Source of the DNA: Naegleria gruberi
Taxonomy: Eukaryota
Direction: 5' to 3' (one strand)
DNA: 64,000 nucleotides
NCBI GenBank assembly: GCA_000004985.1
Contig: GG738914.1
Of this stretch, positions 289-59,500 are shown one piece after another (the stretch's first letter is position 1; each line of letters opens with the position of its first letter). Both the position numbers and the translations under genes were made by a program. Below the pieces are notes generated by a model. It had not been told where the DNA came from and searched no databases. It was given only the letters and a program-made list of their open reading frames with translations.

Positions 289-2187
289 TTATGAAATATT
301 TGACATTGGATGCTGTTTGAAAATCAGCCTTTCAGCTCCTTGCTCTTGATATTCATCAAGTTTCATCCAATACGTACTATTATTATAATTATTGATTAAG
401 AGAGATTTTCCACCCATCCAAGCAGAGTTCTCATGATTACTTTCACCAGTAACATTAATTAATGAGCCTGAAGGTGAAATTTTTCTAATTTCATTTTCGA
501 GTCTTGTGTTGAATCCTTTAAATAAAGTATTTCCACCACAAACAAACACATTACTTATTAATTCTGCTTGTTGCTCTTTGGAAAATTCCTGTAATGTGTT
601 TTCCAATATCTCAGCAAGACCTATTTGATCTCTTCCAGCAATTAATGGTTGGAAAACAATTTCTGGAATACGAATTCTTTCAACTGTCAATCTTAACCCA
701 GTATTATCTGACATGTTCTTACTTTTCTTATATTGAGAAATGAAATGTGACTTGACATAGTCAGTCCTCTTCTCACCGAAATGTTTCATTTCTACTTTGT
801 GGATGAGATTTGTTAAATCATTAACTTCAGAAGTAGCTTTCTTTACCTTCTTGGCATCAACAACTTCTTCCTTAGTGGAGGATTTCTTCTTTTTTTTCTT
901 CTTTTTCTTATCAGTATCGTATAAACTCCAATCATCAAAGGTTTCATCTTCTGCATCATGAATTTCAGCTGCAATTTTGGATTTTTGTCTTTGCTTTGAG
1001 GCAGCTGATCTTTTGCTCTTAAGGGTGTGATCTTTGCTTTGTGAAGAAAGTTCAAATTGCATTTTTTGTAATTTGAATTGAAGTTGAGCCAATTCGTTCC
1101 TCTTGGTTTCTAACCATTTTTCACACTCAGATAAGTTTTTAAACTCAGGAATTGGGTGTTCATCAGGTTTAATTTCTGCTGTTAATTGTGCTGCAGCTTC
1201 TTTTGCTTTTAAAAATTCCTCATATTGCAACTTATTGTTGAAAATTCTAACAGTGCTATTTTCATAAAATTCCTTGTCTTCTGATAGTTTTTGCAATACA
1301 GAATGATAATCATCAGAAACCTGACAATAGTTGACTTTTAAGAATTCTGCCTTTGTTACAGACAAGGAAGGTATTCCCAAAACGTCATAAATAGGAATAA
1401 AATATTTAGAATCTGTCCCAATATTTGGATATTTCAATTGCATTGTCTTTAAGAGTAAATCAGTGGCATGAAAACCTCCTAAATTTAATCTTTTACAACT
1501 ATTCCACTGGACTGTACCATTTAGTATTGGTATCACGTGAGTAGAGTGAAAACCAGATCTAATAATTAATGAATTTACATTGGAATAATTCAATGATTTT
1601 TCTGTACAAGATTGATGCAAACTTAATAAAGCATCAATAGATAAATTAATAGCAGGTATTCCATAACATTCGAATAATATTTCAAGAGTAGATTGTCTTG
1701 TAAATGCAGGATTTAAAATAGATTCAGTAATTACTAATGGAATATCTTTTAAACTAATGTCACTAGCTGTTGAAAATCCCAATTTATAGAATATATAATC
1801 CATCACTTGTTCAAAATATTCAAAACTTGTTACTAAATCATTATCAAAAGGAGATCTTGCATTATATCTTAAATAATCAAAAGGATGTAAATCATTTCCA
1901 ACTAAATATCCTCCATTATGAAGTACTAATTTATCATCATCGGAAACAAAATCCAAATTTTTAATCTCACTCGCTTTTAACTTGGCACACAATGGCCTAA
2001 AATTGAGAACAGGTTCATCCATTGAAGACCAACCAGCCCTACAATGATAACTTCCATTATCAATAATAATTCCTAAAGGATGATTTTCATCGGTACTCAT
2101 TGATGGCACCGGATGAATCTTTTCAATTTTATGCAAGTCTTCATCTTCCTCTATGGTTTCAAAGTAATTTTTCATTTGCATCATCAT
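289..2187 (-). CDS. Actin-related protein, most likely Arp5-like: actin fold with long inserts and a Lys-rich stretch
   Basis: N-terminal IIIDNGSYHCRAGWSSMDEP resembles the actin [12 protein letters not shown] motif. C-terminal ...VCGGNTLFKGFNTRLENEI...AWMGGKSLL is typical of the actin family. The 630-aa length, poly-K/acidic insert and coiled-coil insert are Arp5-like. First ATG at 2187; the track start at 2190 is GTG. Confidence 0.5.
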   Translation of the reverse strand: MMMQMKNYFETIEEDEDLHKIEKIHPVPSMSTDENHPLGIIIDNGSYHCRAGWSSMDEPVLNFRPLCAKLKASEIKNLDFVSDDDKLVLHNGGYLVGNDLHPFDYLRYNARSPFDNDLVTSFEYFEQVMDYIFYKLGFSTASDISLKDIPLVITESILNPAFTRQSTLEILFECYGIPAINLSIDALLSLHQSCTEKSLNYSNVNSLIIRSGFHSTHVIPILNGTVQWNSCKRLNLGGFHATDLLLKTMQLKYPNIGTDSKYFIPIYDVLGIPSLSVTKAEFLKVNYCQVSDDYHSVLQKLSEDKEFYENSTVRIFNNKLQYEEFLKAKEAAAQLTAEIKPDEHPIPEFKNLSECEKWLETKRNELAQLQFKLQKMQFELSSQSKDHTLKSKRSAASKQRQKSKIAAEIHDAEDETFDDWSLYDTDKKKKKKKKKSSTKEEVVDAKKVKKATSEVNDLTNLIHKVEMKHFGEKRTDYVKSHFISQYKKSKNMSDNTGLRLTVERIRIPEIVFQPLIAGRDQIGLAEILENTLQEFSKEQQAELISNVFVCGGNTLFKGFNTRLENEIRKISPSGSLINVTGESNHENSAWMGGKSLLINNYNNSTYWMKLDEYQEQGAERLIFKQHPMSNIS

Positions 2188-2405
2188 CACGGAACAGCAA
2201 ATTTGCTACAGTGTAATTGGAGGAGATGATGTACAGATAAATTTTTTAATTTGGTTTTTCCGAATCAAAATGTTGTTAAACTTTTAATATTTAATATTTT
2301 AATTTAATACAATGGATAATACTCTTATAATATTGTTATCTTACAATTTCTTCAGGAAATATTTAATGTTTTTTTATGGATAACTGCAAATTCAAAATTT
2401 AAAAA

Positions 2406-4609: not shown

Positions 4610-6721
4610 TTAAATGTGCTTTACAGCCTTTATGATGAGCAAGTAAAGTCCAGATGCATTGATTCTTATATGACAATCTCCAGTAAGATTTTTTGGAACC
4701 TCTTTCATAGCTGTAACAAGACTTCCTTTAGCACTATCTGTAGGTTCTTTAACACACTCTACCAAAGAAAGGTATTCCATTAGGGAAACAACTTTGATAT
4801 TTGAGAAGGTATGAAGAACTCTCAAATTATAGTCAGTACATTGATTCGTTGCAGTGAAACACATTGGTGCATAGATTACTAATGCTCTTGGGTTATACAT
4901 GAACAATGAATAGTAAGAGTCTAATCCTTGATTAGTTATGAATACATCCATTACTGTGAAAAGTCTTATTTGCTGAACAACAGTCATATCGTCCAATTTC
5001 AAGTTCAAAATTCTAATACTTTCATATCTGTCATCAGGAATTCTGTGAGAGTTGACTTGCTGTAAAATGTCCTTGGCCAATCCACTTAAGTAGTCAGTCA
5101 ATTTATCAGCATTCACAATACTTTCTTTCTTGGAAGAATTAAGTATACCAATAATCAAAATCTTCTTTCTTCCTTCAAAGTAGCTTCTTGGAGGTACATA
5201 TCCCATTCCATTCAAAACGTAATCTCTGAAAACTGGAATCAAGTGATGTCTCTTTTCAGGTGATAGGAAATAAGAGTCAGGAGAACCTACAACCAAACTT
5301 GAAAAACAAGTGTCCAATTCCTCACCTTCCTTATCCAACGGTTTGGATTGAGCATTTCTCAATTGTCTACATGGAGCAAAATCAACATAGGTACCCTTCT
5401 CGTCATTATCACAAACTTGAAGAGGAAGACTAGATGAAACAAATGATCCAAAATCAATTGAAAGGTCTTCAGCCATAGATGCCTTTTCTAATTGTGCTCT
5501 AGAGAATTTACCAGTTCCATCATTGTGAACATCATCTAGGAACAAAATATTATTGTCATAATTTACAAACTCGTAATCGGCCATCTGATTAAACATTGGC
5601 AAGTAGTTGTTCATAACAAGTGATCCAACTTCTTCAGCATTATGTCTGAAAAATCCAAATGTTGGAGTGGAGACCCATTTGAAATTCTTGGCTAATGTAA
5701 TTGTGGTTGGATGAATTTTCTCAGGAGTCAAGTTTTCAGAGCCCTTATATAAAACAGATTTTGGAGGTGGTGCTATCTTTAACTTGAATTTGGCTGGAGA
5801 AAACTCTTCATTGTAAACAGAAGATGTAAAAACCCAAGGCCTTTCATTTGTTTCCAAAGGTTTGTTTGTGTAAATAATCCACTCTCCTTTTCTATTCAAA
5901 CAGATATTTTCAAATCTGCAGGTTGTAAATTGAACATCAGTCTTTTTAACACTATCCATATCCACATCATTCCTGATGCAATTGTCTTTACTCTCAAACA
6001 TGTAACTAATAGCAGATAGAGTTGATTTAGGAATTGTTGATACATCAATTCTTGCCTTAATTTCATTTTCCTTGTCAATGTAAAATCCAGGTTCACTCTT
6101 TTCTGGGCCCCTAGAAATAGATATCAAAGGTTGTGATATATCTGACTCTGATACACTAGTTAATCTCTTGTCGGAAGTAAATGTTTCCATAATCGAAGGA
6201 ACTTTGGGAGGATTATATCTGCTCAAAAGAGGGAAGGCAGTTTTACTAGAACCTGATTTCAAGCCACCAAAGAACACTCCCTTGATTTTAGATAAGGCTG
6301 TTGTTGGTTGAATGGTGTTCTTTCTCAACAAGGACAGCTTTTCCTTTGAATCTGATAATTCCTTATTAATGGATTCTTGGAATTGAGAATGATGGTGTTG
6401 GTCCAAATGCTCAAAAGAAGAACTAATATCCCTTTCAAAATCCTGTCTTTCAGCAACGCTACTGAAAAAGTACAGCAACATATTTAAGAAGAAAATCAAC
6501 AATGAAATATAAAAAACAACCTTGATGAAGAATACGATGGATCGTTTAGGTTGTAGGGCCTTAAATGTTTGTCCATTGTGATTAGCATTTGATGAATTGA
6601 GGGACTGGAAATGCAGTGATGACGTATGATTTGGTAGCGAATGATTAAGGGTTACACCAAATGGTGTTGAGGTGGATGGTTTGTTACTTGAATCAAGCAG
6701 AGGTCCCTCCGAAGAGAACAT
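4610..6721 (-). CDS. Type II membrane protein with a luminal glycosyltransferase-like domain (GT61/DUF563-like, EOGT/POMGNT2-type)
   Basis: N-terminal cytoplasmic tail, one TM (IVFFIKVVFYISLLIFFLNMLLYFF), then a large domain beginning C-R-F-E-N-I-C and containing GFFRHNAEEVGSLVMNNYLP, which recalls GT61 motifs. True ATG at 6721 (MFSSEG...); the track start at 6784 is TTG. Confidence 0.4.
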   Translation of the reverse strand: MFSSEGPLLDSSNKPSTSTPFGVTLNHSLPNHTSSLHFQSLNSSNANHNGQTFKALQPKRSIVFFIKVVFYISLLIFFLNMLLYFFSSVAERQDFERDISSSFEHLDQHHHSQFQESINKELSDSKEKLSLLRKNTIQPTTALSKIKGVFFGGLKSGSSKTAFPLLSRYNPPKVPSIMETFTSDKRLTSVSESDISQPLISISRGPEKSEPGFYIDKENEIKARIDVSTIPKSTLSAISYMFESKDNCIRNDVDMDSVKKTDVQFTTCRFENICLNRKGEWIIYTNKPLETNERPWVFTSSVYNEEFSPAKFKLKIAPPPKSVLYKGSENLTPEKIHPTTITLAKNFKWVSTPTFGFFRHNAEEVGSLVMNNYLPMFNQMADYEFVNYDNNILFLDDVHNDGTGKFSRAQLEKASMAEDLSIDFGSFVSSSLPLQVCDNDEKGTYVDFAPCRQLRNAQSKPLDKEGEELDTCFSSLVVGSPDSYFLSPEKRHHLIPVFRDYVLNGMGYVPPRSYFEGRKKILIIGILNSSKKESIVNADKLTDYLSGLAKDILQQVNSHRIPDDRYESIRILNLKLDDMTVVQQIRLFTVMDVFITNQGLDSYYSLFMYNPRALVIYAPMCFTATNQCTDYNLRVLHTFSNIKVVSLMEYLSLVECVKEPTDSAKGSLVTAMKEVPKNLTGDCHIRINASGLYLLIIKAVKHI

Positions 6722-6913
6722 TTTTTTTAATATTGATATCTTAAACGAATATCTAGCATCGCTCTCTCTATTGTTCTGGAGCAACTTACTTGAAATTACG
6801 TCATTTCCGTAATATCACCAATATGGTTATTAGAAAAAGCAAAAACCAAAGCATTAATCACATACTGTTACAATGAATTTCCTCTTAAAAGTGGATTTAG
6901 TAATTTGAAAAAA

Positions 6914-7469
6914 ATGTCAGAAAGTGAAGAGCCAACAGCATTTTGCATTTTAGATGATCACATCAAGTCGGAAGAACTAATACAAAACTATACAACTATT
7001 CGAAATGAAATGTTGGAAATTGAGAGGAATAAGCTTTTGCTTGTTGTGATTGGTTGCTTGAGAGATACAAATAATAACTTTACAAGATTTCAAATGGCAT
7101 GTTATGACAAGTCGTGTGGGAAATTCGTCACTGTTTGCTCTTTATCAGTCGGATTTACACAAGAACTAAAACAAGAGATCTCAGAAAGATTATCCAAACT
7201 CATAATACCAAGTCCAAGTGCTAATGTTATTTTCAATGAAAAACAGCCAGCTCAGGTTTGGTTTGCCAATTACAGTTTGGGAAGTAAAAGCTGCTGATGT
7301 TGGGTTATCAACTGTTCATATGGCTGGACATGGATTGATAAAGGAGGGAGCAGGCTTTGCACTTAGATTTCCAATGTTTAACAAAGAGAGGCCATTCAGG
7401 AAACCAAAGGATATTACCACTGTTGATGATATAATTAAAATGTATCATCGACAAGCTATACTATTCTAA
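6914..7469 (+). pseudogene. ATP-dependent DNA ligase I C-terminal (OB-fold) fragment, frameshifted; lacks the adenylation domain
   Basis: Frame A (6914..7297) LLLVVIGCLRDTNNNFTRFQMACYDKSCGKFVTVCSLSVGFTQELKQE...PAQVWF and frame B (7218..7469) TVWEVKAADVGLS...GFALRFPMFNKERPFRKPKDITTVDDIIKMY together match the last ~170 aa of DNA ligase I (LDLVVIGAY..FLLASYDE..ICKLGTGFSDE..AVWEVKCADLS..ISLRFPRFIRVREDK). The frames are separated by a 19-nt segment (about 7256..7274) flanked by a direct GTTTGG repeat. No room exists upstream for the ~500-aa catalytic part, because the GT61-like gene ends at 6721. Confidence 0.5.
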
Positions 7470-8797
7470 ACTTCCTCTTCATAATCAGTTTCTTCGCTTA
7501 TTTCAATATAATCATTTTGAACAGATCGTATTTCTTCTCTACATTGTGTGAATTCTATTTCTTCTGCTCCTTCCTCAAGATACCTGTGTACGAATGATCT
7601 TTCAGAGTATAATTCATCAAAATTTTTCTCGATTCTGGAAAAAGTTTGGCTTATGCTGGTGGAGTTTGACAACATGTTAACATCCCTATCTCTGTAACAA
7701 ATATTTCCACCAGGAATATTCGACAGAGGACCATCATGAATTCCACATTTAAAACCAGCTGGGCACCAGTCAACAAATTTAATTTCTCTGGATGTCTTGA
7801 TCTTGGCTATGGCAGAGCTAACATGTCTAATGCAAATATCCCCTCTGTATTGGACAGTGCACACCATGAATTTGCCGTCCATTAAATTGCAATTAGTCAT
7901 CACTGAATATTTATCCATAAAACAACTTTCAGTAAGCTCAGTAATAGTTGGTTTCTCATAACTACAGAAAACAAATTCCTTAGGGTACAAAGGACTCATT
8001 GAATTGATAAGATATTTAACAGGCGGGTACGGGACAAGATTTGTCATTATTTCAGAAATAGATGAATTCAAACTTCCTTCTCTCCTTACTGATATTGTAG
8101 CCGAGGAGATTGCATTTGCAATAATTTCATTCAAATCTGTCATCTTTGGGTGCTCTACATTCAGCTTGTTTTTACAAATGTCAATTAAAGCTTCATTTTC
8201 CACAATAACTGAAGCATCCGAATACTCACGAATGGAATTCATTCCAAATAGGACATTGTATGATTCCACACATGAAGATACAGAACTTGGTGAAGCTAAA
8301 ATATCAAAACTTAATTTACACTTTTTCTCAAACCCTGGTGCTAGTCTCTCCATCAATAAATCTCTAAAACCAGAGCCAGTTCCTCCATTAAGAGATGAGG
8401 TTATTAAGAAACCCTGTAATGCGTCACATTCTTCAACCATTTTCTCAATTCTTTCCAAACAATTTTCCAAAACTAAATTTCCTCCAACTCCTCTTCCTTT
8501 AGCAAAATTATTGGCCGTATTTTCATTGCCACTAATTAAACTCTCACCATCATAAATATTATTATTTCCTGATCTGATTTTATCAATAATTTCAGAATCC
8601 AAATCAACGAATAATGCTCTTGCTCTCATCGTTCCGTCCATTGACTCGGAAAAGAAATATTTATCAGCTGCAGAATGATTGTGAATTTTAGCACCAGTTG
8701 AAGAATCAATTCCATGTTCCAAACACAATAAATCCCAACAAGTGTTTCCGATCTGAGAGCCTGCTTGTCCAATATGAATAGAAATTATTTCTCTCAT
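7466..8797 (-). CDS. Divergent alpha-tubulin-family protein
   Basis: [30 protein letters not shown] aligns to the alpha-tubulin [51 protein letters not shown], and an acidic C-terminal tail (EETDYEEEV) are present. Roughly 40-50% identity to canonical alpha-tubulin. ATG at 8797. Confidence 0.75.
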   Translation of the reverse strand: [443 protein letters not shown]

Positions 8798-9120
8798 TTT
8801 CTTGGTTGGCTTATTTTTTGTCAATTTTTAATTGAAAATTCAGGATTGTTTTACAATGATATTTCTGAATCATTTATTTTACATTCATTATTATTGTAAA
8901 CATAAGTAAATTATTTTCATTTTCTTTGGAGCTCCGATATATCTTAATATGAGATAATTCCGTCGGGATTTATCAGTAATCAACTCCAGAACTCCAGATG
9001 CTTACGTTTATTACTACTGTGAGTACAACTTGATATCAAGGTGGAAATTGAAATCAATTCACAACACCTTTAAAATCTTTCAAATTCGAGAACAACACAA
9101 AGCAATTTAAAATCAAAAAA

Positions 9121-11553: not shown

Positions 11554-12892
11554 ATGCTCAAATCAAGAGTCATTGCCTCACGTGTTTTAAAGAATAATAA
11601 TCAAAAATGCATCAAATTGATGGCCGGAACACAAAGATGTGTCTCCAGATCACCATTATTTGATTTTACCGAAGAAGAAGTCATGATGCGTAATCTTGTT
11701 CAAGACTTTTGTAAACAATCACTTCCGTGGGAGCTTGTTTCCAAGATGGACAAGGAATCAAAACTTGACCCAAAATTGTTGGATTCATTGTTTGAAGTTG
11801 GATTAATGGGTATTGAAATTCCAGAGGAATTTGGTGGCAGTGGAGCTAATTTTACTTCTTCAATTATTGCAATTGAAGAATTGGCCAAAGTTGATCCTTC
11901 AATTTCTGTCATTGTTGACGTTCAAAATACTTTGGTTAATAATTTGGTTCGTAATTATGGTAATAAGGAACAACAAGAAAAGTATTTGACTCTTCTTGCT
12001 ACTAAAGGTCTTGGATCTTTCTGTTTATCTGAAGCAAGCTCAGGTTCTGATGCATTCTCATTAAAGACCAAGGCTGAACTCCAATCTGATGGATCCTATG
12101 TTTTGAATGGTACCAAATGTTGGATTACCTCTTCACAAGAAGCATCTTTCTATATCGTTATGGCCAATACTGATTTCTCTAAGGGATACAAGGGTATTAC
12201 TGCCTTTTTGGTTGACAAGACTAATCCTGGTGTCAAGATTGGTAAGAAGGAAGATAAGCTCGGTATTAGGTATGTGTGTAATTTATTATTGAACTTGTTT
12301 TCTTAACACTTTTATTAGAGCTTCATCAACATGTGAAGTTATTTTGGAAGATTGTAAAGTTGGCCCAGAATCAATTCTTGGAGGTGTTGGTAAGGGTTAC
12401 AAGATTGCTATTGAAATGCTCAATGAAGGTAGAATTGGTATTGCTGCTCAAGTATGTATTTTATGATTTTGATTGTTGACATTTAATAAGATGATTGGTT
12501 TGGCTCAAGGTGTCTTTGATTACACAATGCCATACTTAAAGTCTCGTAAGCAATTTGGTACTCCAATTGCTGATTTCCAAATGATGGAATATCATTACAG
12601 TAAACTTGCTACTGAAATTGAAGCTGGTAGATTAATGGTTTATAATGCTGCCAGAATGAAGGAAGCTGGACAAGTATTTACTAAGGAAGCTGCTATGGCC
12701 AAGTTTTACACCTCAGAAGTTGCTGGAAATGTTGCAACCAAGTGTATTGAAATGTTGGGTGGTGTGGGATTCTGTCGTGATTTCAGTGCTGAGAAATATT
12801 ATAGAGATTGTATTATTGGTAAGATTTATGAAGGTACCAGTAATATCAACTTGGTCACCATTGCCAAACATGTAAAAAAGCAATACGATTAA
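11554..12892 (+). CDS. Short/branched-chain acyl-CoA dehydrogenase (ACADSB-like), mitochondrial; 3 exons
   Basis: Exons 11554..12269, 12319..12451 and 12491..12892. Introns 12270..12318 and 12452..12490 both begin GTATGT and end AG. The joined protein ...KEDKLGIR|[44 protein letters not shown]|[30 protein letters not shown]... aligns colinearly with human ACADSB through the C-terminal [18 protein letters not shown]. Confidence 0.85.
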
Positions 12893-37675: not shown

Positions 37676-38752
37676 ATGGACAGATTTCTCACTAGTTCTG
37701 GTCACGAAAAGCATTTTTCTGGTGAGTTTTTTATTTTGAATTTTTGTGATGCTATTCCATTATATTAAAATCATCGGATCTAACAAATAGCTGAGGATAC
37801 AATATTTACTGATGATATCTGTGAGGAAATTTCATCATTTCTTGAATCTTTTTTCCTTCTAAATAATTGTTTATTAATTTCAAAACAATGGTTTCGAATA
37901 ATTAAAGAAAATGTGAAACATTCACTCAGTTTTGAGAAACAGATGAATTATCAAGCAAGTGAACAATTATTACAAAGTCAATTTTTAGGAAACATTATTG
38001 AATTGAGTTTTTCTAATCAGACTTTGACTCAAAGTGGTGTTTTGTCAAATGTTATCAAATCTCTAATTTTAATGAAAGAATTAATTACGTTGGATATTTC
38101 TTACCAAAAAATAGGTGATGCAGGATCGAATACAATTGGTCAATTGATCAAATTGACAAAACTTTATGTTTGTGGAAATGAAATCAGTAGTGAAGGAGCC
38201 AAGTCAATTGGTCAATTAAAAAATCTTACCTATCTCAGTGTCAGAATTAATCATCTTGGATCTGAAGGAGCCAAATCAATTGGTCAACTTGAAAAATTAA
38301 GAACACTTTACATTGCGCACAATCAAATTGGAGATGAAGGAATCAAATCAATTAGTCAATTGAAGGAATTAACAACATTATATACAGACTACAATCAAAT
38401 TGGAAGTGGAGGAGCCAAATCAATTGGTGAAATGAAACAATTAACAGAACTTGGCATTTCTGAAAATAATATTGAAGACGAAGGGGCAAAATCAATTGGT
38501 CAACTAATATATCTTAGAAAACTCTCAGCATCTCGATGCAGAATTGGTGATGAAGGGGCTGAATCAATTAGTAAATTGATTAATTTAACAAAACTCAGTA
38601 TTAACACAAATCCAATCAAAGATGAAGGAGCCCTCCACATTATTAAATTACCCCAACTGAAAAAGCTTGACATCACTCGGTGTAGTATTAAAAGTGAAGG
38701 GAAAAAAGTGCTCACCGAAATGAAACTAGTATTCAAAACTCTCTATCACTAA
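37676..38752 (+). CDS. F-box/LRR-repeat protein (RNI-like 24-aa repeats), 2 exons
   Basis: Exon 1 (37676..37721) is MDRFLTSSGHEKHFS. A 69-nt intron (37722..37790, GTGAGT..ATAG) leads to exon 2 from 37791, AEDTIFTDDICEEISSFLESFFLLNNCLLISKQWFRII (F-box-like). About 10 repeats follow of the form NLTxLxxxxNxIGDEGAKSIGQLK. The track ORF at 37913 starts on GTG. Confidence 0.6.
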
Positions 38753-38759
38753 AAAAGAA

Positions 38760-41223
38760 TATTTTACGGTTTTATGTTACTCTTTAGGATGGAAGGAAAT
38801 ATTGAGATACCTTCCAATAAATTTTCTTGATTACTTAATTTTTTGTTAAGAAAAAATACCCGCCAAATATTCCTTCCAGTTTTGCACAGAATTCCAACTT
38901 TTATTGGAAAATTAAAAAAGATTAAAATAAATTTGAAAAATGTTTATTTTTTATTAAAAAAATTTAAACGTTTATTAATCGAATGAACCCGACGGGTTCG
39001 TCCATTTGGAACGTCTTATTGAATTTTTAAGATTTTGTTGTATTGTTTTTGTACTCTTCCTCCAAAAAGTGAGAGGCCTCCTTGTATCTTGGGCCATTGT
39101 TCTTTGATAATACCTTGAATAGGTTCTGTCAGAATACCAAAGATATTCAGTTGGAATGAGTTTGGTGTTAATGTTTCTGTCCTCTCTGTGCTTAGTACTG
39201 GTTCGAGATTGGTATTTTTTTTGATTTCTTCAATCATCCAGTTTCTAGCTGAATTCATTTCTGGGCATTCTATGAAGAGGTGTTCTGTGTCAAGGTTTTT
39301 GTTACATGTTGGGCATTGTGGGTTGTCTACTATGAGGCTTCTTAAGTGTCCATTTATCATGAGCCTCCAGATTGAGTATTTGTGAGTTGGGGTGGTATGT
39401 TCTTTGAGGTACTTGAGATTTGTTCTGTTGATGAGTTCGGATGTTCCTTGATCGTAGAGCTTTTCACTAAGTACTCCTTTGATTCTACTTTTCCAAACTT
39501 TTTTCGAATTGGTGATAATTAATTGCCCTTGAGTTAGTAGATGTTGGGGTGTAATTCGATGTCCTATTCTTGAGGCTTGTTTGGCTTTCTTATCAGCGTA
39601 GTTATTTCCATCTGTTATTCCTGTATGAGCTTTTGTCCATTCGATGGATGCTTGAAGTTTTTTAGTGCTGATGAGGTTGGTAATTTCATCTTTGATTTGC
39701 TTAAATTGACCTTTGTAATTTGTGTTGTTAATTATTTTGACTGCTATTTCACTGTCAGTGAGTACCTTTGCATTGCTGTTTGGTGGTATGATGTGTAGTG
39801 CTGTTGTAATTGCTGATAATTCAGCCATGTTGTTTGAGTGGTATGAGTGGAGCTTGTATTTGTATCCTTTTGTAAATTCGTTGTTCTGAATGATTACACT
39901 GAATCCTACTTTGTTTTCTGATTTGGATCCATCAGTCCATATTGTGAATTCTGAGTAGGAGTATTGTTCATCTTTTTCCTTTTCCAGAAGTTGATGATTG
40001 GTGTTACATTTTGTTGTGGTAAGTTTGTGTTGTTTTAGGATGTAGTGGAATTTCTCAAATATGTTGTGTAGTTTTGTTTTGTTCGTGTTACAGTTATTAA
40101 TTCCGTACTGTACTGCTTCTCTGACAAGTGGGTTACTTGAGTGGAATTTGTTGATTAAGTTATTGCAAAGGATTGAGTTGGCTATGTATTCGAGGTTTGG
40201 AATTTCTAGTCCTTTTCTTTCGAATTGTGCATACATTATGGATGGTTTTACCTTTGCATCGATCTTCAGTGATCTTTTTAGGTTACCCCTTATTGTTGAG
40301 TCAATTGTTTGTAGGCGAGGATTGGAAATTGAATTTCCTCCTGCTAGATGGATAAAACTACTAATTGTCTTGCCCATTATGATTCTTTTGAGATTTTCTG
40401 GTTCTATCAAATGGATTGGAAGTATTTTTAGTATTTGTGTTACTCTAGCTTCTCTTTTGTCAATTTCTTTTGTGAAGAGATGGTCTTCTGTGATGTAGTT
40501 TCCTAATGTTCTTTGATTGGTTTGTCTTGGTATTAACGTATCGTCAAGCTTAACTGTGAAGTCTTTAAGGGCTATTCTTTCCGGTGTGACAGAAGTTATT
40601 GATTTAGAAGCATTGATTTTCATTTTGAGATTCCCTATCCATTTGTTCAGTTGTTTGAGTTTGGTATTGTGTTTCTTGTTGGGTTGTGTTACTAATGAGC
40701 AGTCATCAGCAAAATTAAGAGTTCCTATTTCTTCAATTTTGAATGATGGTGTGACAGGTATTTTCCAATTCTCGATTTGGTAATCTATTATAATTTGGGT
40801 GATTGTGTTATACATTAGTGGTGCTAGTGGACATCCTTGTGGAACACCTCTTGTTTTGGTGAGAGGGTTAATTAATATGTCATTCCATTCTATATATGCT
40901 TTGTGATTGCTGTATGCATTGATTATGAATGTAGTGAGATTTGGTGGGAATTTACAATGTTTCATAGCTAATCTAAGGACACAATGTTCTACACCGTCAT
41001 ATGCATTTTCTATGTCCAAGTTGGTGATTACAAATGCATTTGTTTTCTTGTATTTGACTCTTAATGCTTGGATTACTAGAATATGGTTGTTAACTTCTCT
41101 GTTGGATGTGAATGCTTGTTGTCTAATATTGATGTTATCTTTTGCCCATTTACCTATTTTCCTTGCTATGATGTTAAATAATAGTCTATATAGTGTACTA
41201 TTTTTTATTAAAAAAATGATCAA
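38760..41223 (-). mobile_element. 5'-truncated non-LTR (LINE) retrotransposon: RT, RNase H and a CCHC zinc knuckle, with a structured 3' UTR
   Basis: Minus-strand ORF 39016..41223 has RT motifs 0-C (…AFTSNRE…, DIENAYDGVEH, RGVPQGCPLAPLMYN, FADD), an RNase H block (TDGSKSENKVGFSVII...DSEIAV...KAHTG...NNYADKKAK), and a C-terminal Cys/His knuckle (CPTCNKNLDTEHLFIECPEM). There is no endonuclease or ORF1 part, and the RT fingers start at the ORF edge. The 3' UTR contains a perfect hairpin GAACCCG-A-CGGGTTC (38985..38999). The 3' boundary is not precisely defined. Confidence 0.75.
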
Positions 41224-42271
41224 TCAACAAGACAACATTTCTGCATCACCTTCTCTCACTAGCAATAACAATCATCAGAGACCAATCAGCACACCCGATG
41301 ATCGTCCAACAACTGTTAACATTCCATCACAAATTAGTCAAAATTCTAACCGACCAGTGGTTGCCCCAATTTCTTCCCAACAGCACAAGGATACAAAGTA
41401 TATTATGGTGGCTGATATTGCCTCTGCAAAGATTTTTGCAAATATTATGCACTGTATTTGTTCCGATAAGAAGAAGGAAGATGCTTGGGTGATTTGCGAA
41501 ATTATGGAGGAAGGAATTAAATTCTACATTCAAGACAAATCAATTCAAGGAGTTGCTAGTATGAAGAGGGATATTTTCCAAAATTATATTTATAATGGTG
41601 CAGCACATGCAAAATATTCATTCGAAATTAATGTACAAATCTTGATTCAATGTTTGATTTTATACGGAGCTAATTCATCACAAGGAACAATTGTGAAACT
41701 TTGTTATCCTGGTGTTGAAAATACATTATCATTACTTTTGGGAGAAGAACGTGTAGTAACAGATTGTAATATTAAGATTAGGCATGGAGCAGAACCTTTA
41801 GATTTTGAATTCAAAGGTTCTGAAGAAACATGTAAAATTGTTTTAAAGAGTGAAGTTATGACTGATGCTCTTTCAGAAATTGATTGGCTTGCAAAGACTA
41901 TGGAAATAGGTGTTGAAATGGATGTCCAAGAGCAAGGTGAGGACCAAGTTGCCATAACTTTACCAAAAGGAAAATTATTTTTCAAAACAGTTGATAATGT
42001 GATTGGATCTATGGATATTATTATTCCAAGTACAAATGAGGGTGTATGTTCCTTTGAGGTAAATCACACCCAAATGAGCGTATTTAAATTATCTCATATT
42101 CAACAAGCTTTAAAGGCTTTACCACATTCTGATAGAGTTTGTATTAGAATGAATGAACAAGGTTTACTACAATGGCAATTCATGGTTCGTGCAACTGAAC
42201 CAATAACCTATGTAGATTACACAATGCTACCAATTGATGCAGAATTAGAAGATACAGATTCCACCTTCTAA
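41216..42271 (+). CDS. RAD1: RAD1 (Rad1/Rec1/Rad17 family) checkpoint clamp subunit of the 9-1-1 complex
   Basis: YIMVADIASAKIFANIMHCI aligns to human YSLVASLDNVRNLSTILKAIHF. NVQILIQCLILYGANSSQGTIVKLCYPGVENTLSLLLGEERVVTDCNIKIRHGAEPLDFEF aligns to human NLTVLLDCLSIFGSS..GTLTALRMCYQGYGYPLMLFLEEGGVVTVCKINTQEPEETLDFDF. C-terminal RMNEQGLLQWQFMVRATEPITYVDYTMLPIDAE aligns to RTDNRGFLSLQYMIRNEDGQICFVEYYCCPDEE. The first in-frame ATG is at 41216; the track ORF extends 5' through LINE antisense sequence. Confidence 0.7.
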   Translation: MINQQDNISASPSLTSNNNHQRPISTPDDRPTTVNIPSQISQNSNRPVVAPISSQQHKDTKYIMVADIASAKIFANIMHCICSDKKKEDAWVICEIMEEGIKFYIQDKSIQGVASMKRDIFQNYIYNGAAHAKYSFEINVQILIQCLILYGANSSQGTIVKLCYPGVENTLSLLLGEERVVTDCNIKIRHGAEPLDFEFKGSEETCKIVLKSEVMTDALSEIDWLAKTMEIGVEMDVQEQGEDQVAITLPKGKLFFKTVDNVIGSMDIIIPSTNEGVCSFEVNHTQMSVFKLSHIQQALKALPHSDRVCIRMNEQGLLQWQFMVRATEPITYVDYTMLPIDAELEDTDSTF

Positions 42272-42834
42272 AATTGGAAATTAATGAATTATATCATTTA
42301 GATCATGTACGAATTAGTATGAAAATATCTTTTTTCAGCAACCATCTTTTTATTTTCATTGATAATGTCTAAATGAAAGGTGAAAGTAGAATTGAAATTG
42401 AATTGTGCAAACAATAGCAGTAGAAGCATTAATAGAATAGTATCATCAAACACACTACAGCAAACAATAAATAGTATGATAAATAAATAAACATCTAAAA
42501 AGTATTGGTTAATATTTCCACACAATGGTTGGTAATTCTTTTGTTGATAAAATGAATTGGAGAATAGGAAAGAAATTATTGGATGAAAAGAGTAGTAGTT
42601 GGGAATTTTGGTAGTGGTGGTATTAAAATTACTTCCAAACTTGTTGGAATTTTGGATGAAATATCGATTATTGGAGGATGAAAATAGGGAAGTGAACGGA
42701 AAGGTGGAGGAATTATGGTGTTGATTTGCAGAGTCGTGTATTCTCTCCTCTAATTGTTGTTGTTGATGATAATGATGACAATTATTGTCATCCATAAAAT
42801 TATTAGAGAGTGTAAACTTTCGCCTTTGCGTGAT

Positions 42835-43341
42835 TCAACAGATAATGCAAGACTTCTTTTGCTTGTAGAATTTGTCAATAAAATCAAGTTGGTTCTTGTT
42901 GATGGCTCCTCTTCTCTTCTTTCGGAGGAATTGAACTGCTTCTAATCCTGTCATGTTGCATCGTTTAATAAGTGCCAAAGCTACAAGAATAGGAGCTCTA
43001 CCAAGACCAGCAACACAGTGAACAGCAATACAAGGAAGATCATCGGAATCTCCTTCTTTTGGTGGGAATACTTTATCAACAAGATCCAACCAATCTTGGA
43101 TAACGTGCTTTGGTGGAGAAGAACCATCATCAAAAGCCCAATCAAAGAATTTAATACCTGCTCGTTCAACTACTTCCTTATCATAGGTTGCTTGGCAAAC
43201 TCTGACACAGTGAGTCACATTATTTTGTTTAAATTCCTTAACGTAAAGATGAATATTAGTATCGGATGGAGCATCAGAAATTAAAAACTTGATACCACCA
43301 TGTTCGATGAGAGATGGAGCGTTTGTGAGAGTTACTGCCAT
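42835..43341 (-). CDS. PRL / PTP4A-family protein tyrosine phosphatase with a C-terminal prenylation-type Cys motif
   Basis: Near-colinear with human PRL-1: FLISDAP..VRVCQATYDKEVVERAGIKFFDWAFDDGSSPP; CX5R active site VHCVAGLGRAP; ILVALALI; FLRKKRRGAINKNQL; polybasic region plus C-terminal SCIIC. ATG at 43341. Confidence 0.9.
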   Translation of the reverse strand: MAVTLTNAPSLIEHGGIKFLISDAPSDTNIHLYVKEFKQNNVTHCVRVCQATYDKEVVERAGIKFFDWAFDDGSSPPKHVIQDWLDLVDKVFPPKEGDSDDLPCIAVHCVAGLGRAPILVALALIKRCNMTGLEAVQFLRKKRRGAINKNQLDFIDKFYKQKKSCIIC

Positions 43342-44368
43342 TTGTATTGTTGTTGTTGTGTTCCAATTACTTGTTGAGAGTAGTCGTTGTTGTTTTTTTT
43401 AAAATGTACGGGAAAATTCAAATGTTTGCTATTTGTTGTTCCAAGTTGTTTTCTATTGTTATTGTTGTTGTTAGAAAACACTGACTGTATATTGGATGAT
43501 GATGAGGTAAATAGGGTTGGAGTGTGGGAAGAGAGGGGATTGATGGAAGGTTGTTTTTTCAAAATTGAATAAATACTTGTCGTTTTGGATGAAATATTAA
43601 TAGTTTTCTCACTGTTGTTAGCGTCGAGTTTCTATTCGTTGTGTTGTTGTCTATTATTAACACCAGATGATGGTTTCGGAAGGAGGTTTGTATTAATTGG
43701 ATTTTTAGAAGTTGGGAAAACTATCTTGGTTTGGGTGTCAATTAATCCAAAAGTTTGTGTATTGATGGTGGTAGTAAGGATTTGGTGTTAATTTTTTCTT
43801 CTTCGTTCGCTTTTGAGAATCTTTACTCAGGCGCCAAAAAATTCTGTCAAATTAATAAAAATCTAAAAAATCCAAAGTTTGAGTTTGAGGGTTGACAGTT
43901 TTAAGAGTTGAAAAAAAGAACATTACAATAAGGATTGAGGTTGTATTTTTAAACAATTACTTTAATTAATGTCTGTTAGAAATGATCGAATTTCAGCTGC
44001 TCATTCCAATTCCTTTGAATATTTGCTAATTAGTTTGAAACTCCAAGATATTTTGCTTCCATTTTCAATTCAATTTTTGTAACACCACTTGTTGATATCC
44101 ATTCACCTCCTTCCAACCCAACACTCTATTATACAATCACATCAGTCCCAAAAACCATTGAATCATTTCAAAACGTGAAAACTCTCATCACGATTCAACA
44201 TAAAAAGGTAACAAAAACTTTGTAAAATTAAAAATAGACCGGAATTTGAAGAACGGTTGATGAAACCTTCTAAAACAAAAAGCCACAACAACAACATCAT
44301 CGAGTGCTTGTGTTCTTCATCATCAGAGATTGCAATTTAATCAGTTGAGATTTATTCCGGATTTAAAA

Positions 44369-56560: not shown

Positions 56561-59500
56561 TTAGACGGTCATCAGTTCTACATCTTGTGGTTTTGATTTT
56601 TCAAATGTTCGTTTCTTCCTTCTTAAACATCTGACAATTAAAATTGAAATAATAACAATCATGATTCCACAACAGCAGACAACTAATAATCCAAATAATC
56701 CAAACAGACCATACAATGCCAGATTTGAACTCGTTCTTGGTGAAATACTTGTTTCATGTTCTAGTTGTGTTATGGTTGAGTTGGAAATTGTCTTTTCAAC
56801 AACTATGAGTGAAGTGACAGATTTCGAACAATTACAGTAAATTACTGGTGCTGATATTGTCGTGGAACAAGTGTGATTGGACGTAAGAGAGATGATATTG
56901 TCAATTAGAACACATTCAATAGTTGAAAAGACACTTGTTCTTTGTTCAATATTGTCGCTTGTACTTTCAAAAGTATTTTTCACATTGATATTTGAAAAGT
57001 TATACTCATTTCCAAGATTGAATGAGAATGTAATATCTGCAGTAAACTTCTTTTCAACAGAAACAATCTTACTGAGTGACTTGAAAGTTGTTTTAGTCTC
57101 AATTTCTTCCAAATCTGAAATTTTGATTGTTTGAACATTTGATACTTGTTTCAAAGAATAATAAACTCCCAAATGGTCAGTAACTGAGAAGAATGATGCT
57201 TCCAAAACAAGTCTATTAGAAACACTTGTATCAATAGCATCAAATACAAGTGAGCTATTTCCACCATCAGATGTCATTAATTTCTTCACTTGTTGATTCT
57301 TATAACTCAACAGAGAAACAGTTGAATAATGAGAAAGGTTTACACTATAATCTTTCTGACCTACGTAATAACTTCTCATCAACACATTGCTGAATATCTT
57401 AATTGAATCTAACACTCTATACGTGTCTTGCAGTTTACTGTCACCAGTTAATCTAATAATATTGTTAAATAAGCTGCTACATAACTTTTCTACACCCTCA
57501 GCAACTCTGAATTTCGTGTTTTTGGCAGCCATTACCATCAATTTTTCAGTCAAGTTGAATAACTTTTCGAATGGAAGTGAATTAATTGAATCACAATTTG
57601 AAGCCAAAGATTCCAACCCAAAAGAATAAACTCTAAAGTGAATGTCTGAAATCAATTCTAGAGGATTTCTCTGATTTAATCCAAGTATCATACTGTCAAG
57701 CATTTCATCTCTCAATTCATAAGCAATACCCGCTTCGTTTTCAGCCAATTTTCTTGATGTTATCAAATTGGAAATCATTAACTCTGATGTTCTTGAAATA
57801 GTTGCAGAATTGAAAACCAACTTGGCACTATCACTTGGCAGAAGAGATGCAGCCTTTAATTGCCAAACTTTCACTTTGTTTTTGATTTGTAACATTGAAG
57901 AGGCAGTGGGTGTTTTAACTTCCACTGATTTGATAAACTCAACTGATGCACCAGTATCCAAATCAACAATATCCACAAATGTATCCATAACATTTGAACT
58001 AAATGGAGAAGGAAGATAGGAAGCAAACTTCTCACCCAAATTGTAAAGTGGAATTTTAGTTCCTGACTTGTCATCAATGAACCCAAATACAAAATCAATT
58101 GATTGTTCAGCATTTTGGCATCCAGGACATGAGAACGAGAATTCAGTTTCCAATGCATAACCATATGATGGATTAATATAACACAAACATGATTTTGGTG
58201 ATTTGACAATTTTGAATTTGTACGAGAATCTTGATGAAAGATTATTTCTCCTGTCTGAAACTTGGAATTCAATTTCATACTCTCCATCTTCCAGTAACTC
58301 AAGAAGCGACAGAATTAATGATGAAGATTTAGATGGTTGAGTAGACATTTTAGAGATCATTGAATTAGTCAATGAATTACCATTAATTGACCACTCTCTG
58401 ATCATATCCTCTTCATCAGTTTGTTTTTCATCTCCTCCCAAAATAACTGATAATTGTAAACTCAATACTTCATCTTTGAGAACTTTGAATCTGTTTGGAT
58501 AAACAGAAATTAAACTTATCACTGGTGGAATTAACAATTCAGTGTTTGGATAATCAATGTCAAGAGATTTAGAAATGGAACGTAGTCCTTTCTGAATGCT
58601 CAATGTCAGAGAAACTTTTGAAAGACTTCCTTTAGGAATTTGACATGTCGATGATTTGGTAATGGCATAATGTGTTAAAATATTGGAAATTGTTGAATCT
58701 TGACATGCTTGATTTGAAACTCTATCAAAACATGACCAATTCCATGAATCTGAAACTGAATCTATATTATCAGGATCTGAATTCTCAACTATCACATCAG
58801 CTTGATTGGTATTCAAACTAGAAACATAAATATTTAGTAATAAATCTCTTGATTTGCTTGAAAGTGGAATTAAAAGTGTTGCGTTCGAATTTGGATTGAA
58901 TTTTGAAATTGCTTTTACACCAAATGAATAAGATTCATCCCCATTTGATAATATTTCTGTAATAACCAAATCATTATTTGAATCTATTTGATAATTAATA
59001 GTGGATGGACCTGAGAGTTTCTCCCAAATATAGTCAAATTCCCTGTTATCAAAATAACATGAAGGTAATTCAATAGATTTCTTAACAATTATTGGGAGCG
59101 AACCCTTTTCAATATTGGTGAGTGACATTTTGTTTGTAAGCAATGAAAGAGTAGGATTTGGAACAATTGATTTGATAATTTCAATAAATTTCTTTTCACT
59201 CCTTGCGCCACTGAGAGAACTTTCAGCAATCAAGCCAAAGACATAGCTTCCTGAAATCGAAATACTATTTGAGGTCAAAGTTGAATTGAAATCACCAAAA
59301 GAAACCTGTTGCAAGTTGAAATTTGAATCAGGAGATGATTCAATAGACCAAATAAATTTCACAGGTTTCAAATCACCACAATATGATCCAGAAGCATCAA
59401 TTGCAATTTGTTCACATGGACTAATTGTATTCTTAAATGAAATATTGATTATTGGTTTCACAGGGTTGTTGGAGGGAAGCAGTAACAGTGAGATATATCT

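What the first reader, a model, noticed from the sequence alone, without database searches (positions are those of the whole stretch)
6914..7469. Orphan C-terminal fragment of DNA ligase I with a 19-nt insertion flanked by a 6-bp direct repeat
Two overlapping frames together reconstruct only the last ~170 aa (OB-fold plus C-terminal tail) of an ATP-dependent DNA ligase I. No space exists for the adenylation domain, since the neighbouring glycosyltransferase gene ends 190 bp upstream. The frame switch happens exactly where the conserved AVWEVKAADL motif begins. Deleting GTTTGGTTTGCCAATTACA (about 7256..7274), which is bounded by GTTTGG direct repeats, restores PAQVWEVKAADV. The fragment is also internally degenerate relative to ligase consensus. 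This looks like a decaying duplicate or retro-copy of the C-terminal exon(s) of LIG1, not a functional gene. Sequencing error is the alternative explanation.
Basis: seen in the sequence. Interest (0 to 1): 0.5.

Follow-up and report, generated by a model that had tools for sequence, protein, structure and literature searches.

The report
Frameshifted stand-alone ligase OB-domain gene
This is a small Naegleria gruberi gene that encodes only the C-terminal OB-fold domain of a DNA-ligase-I-type protein; it has an intact sister gene elsewhere in the genome and is broken here by a two-base loss, not a 19-base insertion, so it is either a very young pseudogene or an assembly error and is fairly ordinary.

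Summary
The window is from Naegleria gruberi. Region 6914-7469 (+) is the annotated gene NAEGRDRAFT_74433, modelled as 127 aa. The ligase I similarity is real: Pfam PF04679, human LIG1 E=1e-19, and a predicted fold 1.4 A from the LIG1 OB domain.

It is not an orphan scrap. N. gruberi has an intact 184-aa paralogue, NAEGRDRAFT_66795, which is 51% identical and colinear from Met1 to the C-terminus. Both copies have lost motif VI RxDK and the GxGKR loop. The "degeneracy" is therefore a family trait. The broken copy keeps more ligase-conserved residues (28/41) than the intact one (24/41).

The "19-nt insertion" reading is wrong. Those bases encode V-W-F-(x)-P-I-T of the conserved WF-x4-VWEV motif, and 152 of 155 homologues have that spacing. 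The GTTTGG repeats are two Val-Trp codon pairs and occur at chance frequency. The actual lesion is at base G7265, the remnant of one codon that has lost 2 nt. Repair there scores 141.7 bits; excising the 19 nt scores 121.0.

There is no support for an intron or programmed frameshift. A real, recent frameshift (about 0.5) and two bases dropped in the assembly (about 0.4) cannot be told apart here. The family's function is unknown; a non-catalytic nucleic-acid-binding or ligase-accessory role is inferred.

The parts
6722..6913 (.). 192-bp spacer between two divergently oriented start codons: the minus-strand 703-aa ORF (ATG at 6719-6721) and the OB-domain gene (ATG at 6914). Presumed shared promoter region.
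   Evidence: The nearest in-frame upstream stop for the OB gene is TGA at 6791. No ligase-like coding sequence lies upstream.
6914..7264 (+). Coding part 1 (frame 2), residues 1-117: MSESEE...PAQVWF. It comprises a disordered acidic N-terminus, a helix corresponding to the LIG1 interdomain linker, and the first strands and helix of the OB fold.
   Evidence: Identical to residues 1-117 of GenBank model NAEGRDRAFT_74433. tblastn with paralogue P0002 covers 6914-7264. Codon-usage score is 0.456, against -0.11 and -0.18 in the other frames.
7265..7265 (+). The frameshift site. A single G is left from codon 118, the 'x' of WF-x-P-I-T-VWEV. Two bases are missing relative to all homologues.
   Evidence: Frame 2 homology ends at 7264 and frame 0 homology starts at 7266. 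152 of 155 homologues have exactly 4 residues between W[F/L] and VWEV. Profile scores: 2-nt repair here 141.7 bits, 1-nt-insertion model 134.3, 19-nt excision 121.0.
7266..7466 (+). Coding part 2 (frame 0), residues 119-185: PITVWEVKAADV...LRFPMFNKERPFRKP...KMYHRQAILF. [quoted passage not shown]
   Evidence: 58% identical to the paralogue over this part. Codon-usage score is 0.31, against -0.27 and -0.32 in the other frames. The chance of 67 open codons at this base composition is 0.006.
7467..7469 (+). TAA stop of the restored reading frame. It overlaps the TAG stop (7466-7468, minus strand) of the convergent tubulin-family gene.
7295..7297 (+). Premature TGA reached in frame 2 after the frameshift. 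It terminates the 127-aa product of the annotated gene model.
7256..7280 (+). GTTTGG (7256-7261) encodes Val115-Trp116, and GTTTGG (7275-7280) encodes Val122-Trp123, within the conserved VWF-x-P-x-x-VWEV motif.
   Evidence: The alignment to human LIG1 (HWLDPSAVWEV) and to the paralogue (VWFRPVTIFEI) is gapless across this stretch.
7362..7403 (+). Motif VI region, LRFPMFNKERPFRK. The RxDK core reads RPFR (7389-7400). Asp (96% conserved) is replaced by Phe, Lys (96%) by Arg, and the Arg of RFPRF (98%) by Met.
   Evidence: The paralogue has RKFM. 167 of 172 homologues keep the canonical Asp-Lys.

Best explanation
Region 6914-7469 is a complete small gene of Naegleria gruberi (NAEGRDRAFT_74433), not a leftover exon. 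It has its own start codon and a 192-bp promoter spacer, and it encodes a stand-alone OB-fold domain of about 185 aa descended from a ligase-I-type ATP-dependent DNA ligase.

It belongs to a two-member N. gruberi family with the intact 184-aa NAEGRDRAFT_66795. The common ancestor had already lost the adenylation domain, the RxDK core of motif VI and the GxGKR loop. The family therefore cannot ligate or promote adenylylation in the canonical way.

The family keeps the OB core. It also keeps the DNA-contacting Phe equivalent to human F872 and, in this copy, the Lys equivalent to K845. From this I infer that it acts as a non-catalytic nucleic-acid-binding module, or as an accessory module that docks onto a ligase.

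In this assembly the copy is broken by the loss of two bases from codon 118, of which only G7265 remains. Translation from ATG 6914 runs into TGA 7295-7297 and gives a 127-aa product that lacks the last OB strands and motif VI, which is most likely inactive. The downstream 67 codons are still open, have gene-like codon usage and are well conserved. If the lesion is real it is therefore very recent: a young pseudogene or a null allele.

Shown: identity, family membership, fold, and the position and size of the lesion. Inferred: function of the family, and that the lesion is biological.
For: - Organism and gene: (XP_002670507.1, 127 aa).
- Ligase OB domain: Pfam PF04679 E=3e-13; human LIG1 E=1.4e-19; AlphaFold model with pLDDT 86.9, superposing on the human LIG1 OB domain at 1.4 A over 146 columns, E=1.6e-15.
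- Intact paralogue: P0002/XP_002677864.1, 184 aa, E=2e-47, aligned 2-179 to 2-178 with conserved Met-Ser-x-x-Glu-Glu start. Its own model has pLDDT 86.9 and the same topology.
- Lesion at 7265.
- Shared derived losses (D to F, K to R/M, GxGKR loop, and the Asp of DLVxIG). Canonical Asp-Lys is present in 167 of 172 homologues, including all short metagenomic fragments.
- This copy keeps 28 of 41 highly conserved columns, against 24 of 41 for the intact paralogue. Repaired, it scores 141.7 bits against 143.1.
- Coding signal in both halves.
- No adenylation domain in the window.
- Role of motif VI Arg/Lys in step 1: PMC4609770.
Against: - No read-level, transcript or second-assembly evidence was available, so the 2-nt loss could be an assembly error.
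- The complete lack of further decay fits an intact gene equally well.
- No orthologue was found in any other species, so long-term purifying selection is inferred only from the two paralogues. Ka/Ks could not be computed because the paralogue's DNA was not retrievable.
- The proposed binding or accessory function is untested.
- The paralogue's genomic context could not be inspected, so its stand-alone status rests on the gene model and on colinearity with this locus.
Confidence: 0.5

Rival explanations
1. It is the same gene and family, but intact in the organism. The draft assembly dropped two bases at codon 118, for example TTT-GNN-CCA read as TTT-G-CCA, possibly by contraction of a short G or C run. 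The real product would be a 185-aa stand-alone OB-fold protein like its paralogue.
For: Apart from this one site the gene looks fully functional. Both halves are open and have gene-like codon usage. It keeps more ligase-conserved residues than the intact paralogue. The repaired protein scores as well as the paralogue and folds confidently. The only public model is from the draft assembly.
Against: The missing bases are not in an obvious homopolymer in the sequence as it stands (TGGTTTGCCAATT). A 2-nt consensus error is rarer than a 1-nt error. No independent sequence could be obtained, and a screen for other unexplained frame breaks in the window was too noisy to estimate the assembly's indel error rate.
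Confidence: 0.4
2. One reading: a 19-nt insertion (7256-7274) with a 6-bp GTTTGG target-site-like duplication disrupted an orphan, decaying copy or retro-copy of the LIG1 C-terminal exon(s).
For: Deleting 7256-7274 restores a frame reading PAQVWEVKAADV. The GTTTGG repeats exist.
Against: - The excised bases encode VWF.PIT, which aligns without a gap to HWLDPSA of human LIG1 and VWFRPVT of the paralogue.
- None of 155 homologues lacks this segment.
- The excision model scores 20.7 bits below the 2-nt repair.
- 6-bp repeats at this spacing occur 11 times per kb here.
- There is no poly(A) tract after the stop, the start codon is conserved, and an intact paralogue exists.
- The sequence is at most about 41% identical to any full-length ligase, so it is not a recent copy.
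Confidence: 0.02
3. Programmed +1 ribosomal frameshifting at UUU-G-CCA skips G7265 and produces a 184-aa protein from the sequence as written.
For: A +1 shift at this point yields a continuous OB-fold protein (ins1 model, 134.3 bits).
Against: - The product would have 3 rather than 4 residues in a spacer that is 4 residues long in 152 of 155 homologues.
- There is no stop codon or rare codon at the site: GCC is 8.6 per 1000 codons, about 21% of Ala codons.
- There is no downstream RNA structure (z = 0.46).
- The paralogue needs no frameshift.
Confidence: 0.02
4. The 19-20 nt segment is a tiny spliceosomal intron.
For: It begins with GT, and an AG lies at 7274-7275.
Against: - GT(7256)...AG(7275) is 20 nt, which does not restore the frame. 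The frame-restoring 19-mer ends in CA.
- Both flanks and the segment itself are homologous coding sequence.
- The real introns seen in this window are 49 and 39 nt long and start with GTATGT (12270-12318 and 12452-12490).
Confidence: 0.01

Closest known systems
NAEGRDRAFT_66795 (XP_002677864.1, UniProt D2VDC5), an uncharacterised N. gruberi 'predicted protein' of 184 aa
   Same: Same architecture: an OB-fold/C-terminal ligase domain only. It is colinear from Met1 to the C-terminus at 51% identity. It shares the same derived losses (motif VI Asp to Phe, GxGKR loop) and the same predicted topology.
   Different: Its reading frame is intact. It is somewhat more diverged from the ligase consensus (IFEIQ instead of VWEVK; RKFM against RPFR). 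It lies on a different scaffold.
Eukaryotic DNA ligase I (for example human LIG1, PDB 1X9N/7QNZ; Tieghemostelium lacteum LIG1), OB-fold domain, Pfam PF04679
   Same: Homologous OB fold plus C-terminal helix, 32-35% identical, 1.4 A rmsd. It keeps the conserved GF, WF-x4-VWE, S and LRFP.F elements, including the equivalents of human F872 and K845.
   Different: It has no DNA-binding domain, no adenylation domain and no motif I lysine. Motif VI RxDK is degenerate and the GxGKR loop is deleted. It is a separate small gene, so it cannot be a ligase on its own.
KREPA1/KREPA2 of kinetoplastid editosomes (OB fold supplied in trans to RNA editing ligases REL2/REL1)
   Same: This is a precedent, in another Discoba lineage, for a ligase OB fold residing on a separate polypeptide and stimulating a ligase that has only an NTase domain (PMC4366279). 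N. gruberi encodes 13 canonical RNA ligases (PMC6052137).
   Different: There is no sequence relationship. The KREPA proteins carry zinc fingers and are not derived from LIG1. No partner ligase has been identified for the Naegleria proteins. This is an analogy only and is untested.

Membership tests
ATP-dependent DNA ligase I (functional enzyme) | Nucleotidyltransferase (adenylation) domain with the motif I lysine KxDGxR | tested here: not met
   tblastn with full-length LIG1 proteins finds only the OB region (6986-7460) in the 64-kb window. The protein starts at the interdomain linker. A divergent gene starts 192 bp upstream.
ATP-dependent DNA ligase I (functional enzyme) | C-terminal OB-fold domain (Pfam PF04679) | tested here: met
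   PF04679 E=3e-13, 50.3 bits against a cut-off of 27.5. Foldseek top hits are human LIG1, rmsd 1.4 A.
ATP-dependent DNA ligase I (functional enzyme) | Motif VI RxDK in the OB domain (needed for step 1 adenylylation) | tested here: not met
   It reads RPFR at 7389-7400. Asp (96% conserved) is replaced by Phe and Lys (96%) by Arg. 167 of 172 homologues keep Asp-Lys. The role of the motif is taken from PMC4609770.
ATP-dependent DNA ligase I (functional enzyme) | N-terminal DNA-binding domain | tested here: not met
   No match in the window.
N. gruberi stand-alone ligase-type OB-domain family (with NAEGRDRAFT_66795) | Colinear end-to-end homology, including a shared start and shared derived substitutions | tested here: met
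   E=2e-47, 51% identity, residues 2-179 aligned to 2-178. Shared losses are shown.
N. gruberi stand-alone ligase-type OB-domain family (with NAEGRDRAFT_66795) | Uninterrupted reading frame | tested here: not met
   Frame break at 7265 and premature TGA at 7295-7297. Whether this is biological or an assembly error is not testable here.
   The segment is homologous coding sequence. The repeat frequency is at chance level.
Processed retro-copy | Poly(A) tract at the 3' end, flanking duplications, and loss of parental introns | tested here: inconclusive
   There is no poly(A) tract after the stop; the stop overlaps the convergent tubulin gene's stop. The parent gene and its intron positions could not be retrieved.
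Spliceosomal intron of N. gruberi | GT...AG boundaries in a frame-restoring register, and a length like that of other local introns | tested here: not met
   The 19-mer ends in CA, and the 20-nt GT..AG segment does not restore the frame. Local introns are 39 and 49 nt and start with GTATGT.
Programmed +1 frameshift site | A slippery P-site codon followed by a stop or rare codon, and/or a stimulatory RNA structure | tested here: not met
   The following codon, GCC, is not rare. The fold z-score is 0.46. The predicted product has a spacer length seen in none of 155 homologues.

The most novel reading that the evidence does not exclude
The two N. gruberi OB-only proteins form a previously unrecognised class of LIG1-derived, catalytically 'dead' OB modules. 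They would act in trans, as accessory or regulatory subunits for one or more of the many NTase-type ligases of this organism or as autonomous nick or duplex binders. This would be functionally analogous to KREPA1/2 in kinetoplastids. On this reading the window copy is actually intact and expressed, and the frameshift is an assembly error.
Probability: 0.1. Interest if true: 0.55.

Novelty: new member of a known kind. Interest (0 to 1): 0.22.

Why it matters
The main value is corrective. An apparent insertion with a target-site duplication turns out to be an artefact of two conserved Val-Trp codon pairs, and an apparent dead fragment turns out to be one of two paralogous stand-alone genes.

If the family is functional, it would be a eukaryotic example of a DNA-ligase OB domain living on as a separate non-catalytic protein. 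That would be of modest interest for ligase evolution and for the unusually rich nucleic-acid repair repertoire of Naegleria. For annotation, NAEGRDRAFT_74433 should be flagged either as frameshifted (pseudogene) or as needing sequence correction to about 185 aa.

Tried and rejected
- Exact look-ups of window proteins, P0001 and P0002 in the contig index all failed. There was therefore no DNA for the paralogue, no Ka/Ks and no view of its context.
- I tried to identify the full-length N. gruberi LIG1 by naming 27 of the best hits. None was from Naegleria; they were a dictyostelid, insects, Plasmodium, Emiliania huxleyi virus, fungi, algae and unnamed metagenomic proteins. The look-ups are exhausted.
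- The metagenome scan for close relatives returned only generic ligase I at 40% identity or less.
- Literature searches for the locus tags and accessions found nothing. Searches for Naegleria LIG1 were uninformative.
I used the fusion, which differs at 4 residues, and also modelled the paralogue.
- A codon-score screen for other unexplained frame breaks in the window, meant to estimate the assembly's indel error rate, was too noisy to interpret.
- The intron, +1 frameshift and 19-nt insertion models were considered and rejected, as set out under the rival explanations.

Full report
**Identity of the window and the locus.** The window is AT-rich (about 34% GC) and densely packed with eukaryotic genes: tubulin, an actin-related protein, a Sel1-repeat protein, an APH-family kinase and an acyl-CoA dehydrogenase. 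A protein search with the fused ORFs returned one near-identical hit, a 127-aa 'predicted protein' of Naegleria gruberi. This is NAEGRDRAFT_74433 / XP_002670507.1 / D2VZB6. It equals the first ORF from ATG 6914 to TGA 7295-7297. The finding therefore sits on an already annotated but uncharacterised gene model of the N. gruberi draft genome.

**Checking the observation.**
- The two ORFs exist as described: 6905/6914..7297 in frame 2 and 7218..7469 in frame 0.
- The ligase similarity is real. The first ORF alone passes the Pfam PF04679 (DNA_ligase_A_C) threshold, and the fusion gives E=3e-13.
- phmmer against PDB sequences gives human LIG1 at E=1.4e-19, covering LIG1 residues 740-901 of the 919-aa chain. 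That is from the WLKLKKDY linker to the end.
- An AlphaFold model of the fusion has mean pLDDT 86.9, and above 90 from residue 40 onwards. Foldseek places it on the human LIG1 OB domain at 1.4 A rmsd over 146 columns.
- tblastn with full-length ligases finds nothing else ligase-like in the 64 kb.
- The neighbouring 703-aa ORF is on the opposite strand and starts, rather than ends, 192 bp upstream. It has no Pfam match at all.

**The '19-nt insertion' is coding sequence.**
- The alignment to human LIG1 runs without a gap through the disputed segment: HWLDPSAVWEV against VWF....VWEV.
- tblastn with the paralogue (see below) shows frame 2 homology ending at 7264 (..VWF) and frame 0 homology starting at 7266 (PITVWEV, against PVTIFEI in the paralogue).
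- The only unaccounted base is G7265. The locus reads V-W-F-[G..]-P-I-T-V-W-E-V, which is the conserved WF-x4-VWEV motif with one codon reduced to a single base.
- In a census of the retrieved homologues, 152 of 155 have exactly four residues in this spacer. None has three or zero.
- I scored four reconstructions against a profile built from 169 ligase OB domains, excluding the Naegleria proteins:

| Reconstruction | Score (bits) |
|---|---|
| 2-nt repair at 7265 | 141.7 |
| Frame switch at 7274 | 139.5 |
| 1-nt-insertion model | 134.3 |
| Intact paralogue, for reference | 143.1 |

- The two GTTTGG hexamers are simply the Val-Trp codons of VWF and VWEV. Exact 6-bp direct repeats at offsets of 10-30 nt occur 11 times per kb in this window, and this gene has 4 where 6.2 are expected.

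**It is not an orphan.**
- An exhaustive HMMER search of 1.84 billion representatives found only two proteins below 1e-30. One is the gene model itself. The other is P0002, which is N. gruberi NAEGRDRAFT_66795 / XP_002677864.1, 184 aa, on a different scaffold.
- P0002 is colinear with the repaired window protein from the initiator (MSQDEE against MSESEE) to the C-terminus at 51% identity, with no gap at the lesion. It contains only PF04679 and is predicted to have the same fold.
- The next best hits are full-length ligases of scattered taxonomy at 28-41% identity. Because the N. gruberi proteome is in that library, the organism's own LIG1 cannot be much more similar than that. The copy is therefore ancient, not recent.
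- No orthologue was detected in any other species or in metagenomes.

**The degeneracy is a family trait.**
- Forty-one columns are at least 80% conserved in ligase OB domains. The window copy keeps 28 of them and the intact paralogue keeps 24.
- Both copies share several losses: the GxGKR loop, the Asp of DLVxIG, and the Asp-Lys of motif VI RxDK (RPFR here, RKFM in the paralogue). That Asp-Lys pair is canonical in 167 of 172 homologues, including all the short metagenomic fragments.
- According to the literature read here, the motif VI Arg and Lys orient the pyrophosphate leaving group during ligase adenylylation (PMC4609770). The family has therefore probably abandoned the catalytic role of the OB domain.
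- The family retains the structural core and the residues equivalent to human R871-F872-P873. This copy also keeps K845. The numbering is derived from the alignment to chain 7qnz_A.

**State of this copy.** As written, translation ends at TGA 7295-7297 after 127 aa, removing the last OB strands and motif VI. Yet the 67 codons after the lesion remain open (chance 0.006). They have gene-like codon usage, 0.31 against -0.27 and -0.32 in the other frames, where real genes here score 0.30-0.60. They are the best conserved part relative to the paralogue, at 58%. The lesion is therefore either very recent or not real.

**Alternatives tested.**
- Intron: the frame-restoring 19-mer ends in CA, and the GT..AG version is 20 nt and does not restore the frame. 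The genuine introns in the adjacent acyl-CoA dehydrogenase gene are 49 and 39 nt long and begin with GTATGT.
- Programmed +1 frameshift: there is no rare or stop codon at the site and no downstream structure (z = 0.46). The product would also have a spacer length seen in no homologue.
- Retro-copy: there is no poly(A) tract, since the stop codon overlaps that of the convergent tubulin gene. The parental intron positions were not testable.

**Mechanism (inferred).** The family most plausibly acts as a non-catalytic OB module, binding nicked or duplex nucleic acid or docking onto a ligase NTase domain. A conceptual precedent is the OB fold supplied in trans by KREPA1/2 to the kinetoplastid RNA editing ligases (PMC4366279), and N. 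gruberi is unusually rich in ligases (PMC6052137). This is an analogy, not homology, and it is untested.

**Verdict.** The ORFs and the ligase similarity are confirmed. The insertion, direct-repeat and orphan-fragment reading is not. The locus is a frameshifted member of a two-gene, N. gruberi-specific family of stand-alone ligase-I-type OB-domain proteins. A real and recent 2-nt deletion (about 0.5) and an assembly error (about 0.4) cannot be separated with the available tools. Interest is low to modest.

Noticed in passing
window 7466-8824 (-), likely ATG near 8797: A divergent tubulin-family gene (Pfam Tubulin E=2e-49 and Tubulin_C E=9e-26) converges on the OB-domain gene. Its TAG stop (7466-7468) overlaps the OB gene's TAA stop (7467-7469), so the two 3' ends must overlap.
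   Followed up: partly
window 4610-6721 (-): A 703-aa ORF transcribed divergently from the OB gene has no Pfam match even at E<=10. It has gene-like codon usage.
   Followed up: partly
window 11554-12892 (+): An acyl-CoA dehydrogenase gene is split by two short canonical introns, 12270-12318 (49 nt) and 12452-12490 (39 nt). Both start with GTATGT and end in AG. They are useful as local intron references.
   Followed up: yes
window 38000-44000: There is a strongly positive GC skew (0.15-0.23) and negative AT skew. Long ORFs overlap on opposite strands (39016-41223 minus and 40907-42271 plus), and closely spaced minus-strand ORFs lie at 42298-42795 and 42835-43341. This could be biased-composition or repetitive coding sequence, or a split gene.
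   Followed up: no
window 289-2190 (-): A 633-aa ORF matches the Pfam Actin family (E=1e-53) in two separate stretches. This suggests an actin-related protein with a large insertion.
   Followed up: no
window 56561-63973 (-): A single 2470-aa open reading frame runs almost to the end of the window. It was not characterised.
   Followed up: no
P0009, P0066, P0072, P0097, P0107 and other short hits: Many proteins of 150-230 aa in metagenome-derived collections contain only the ligase OB domain, but all of them keep the canonical RxDK. They look like terminal exons or contig-end fragments of ordinary ligases, not true stand-alone proteins.
   Followed up: partly
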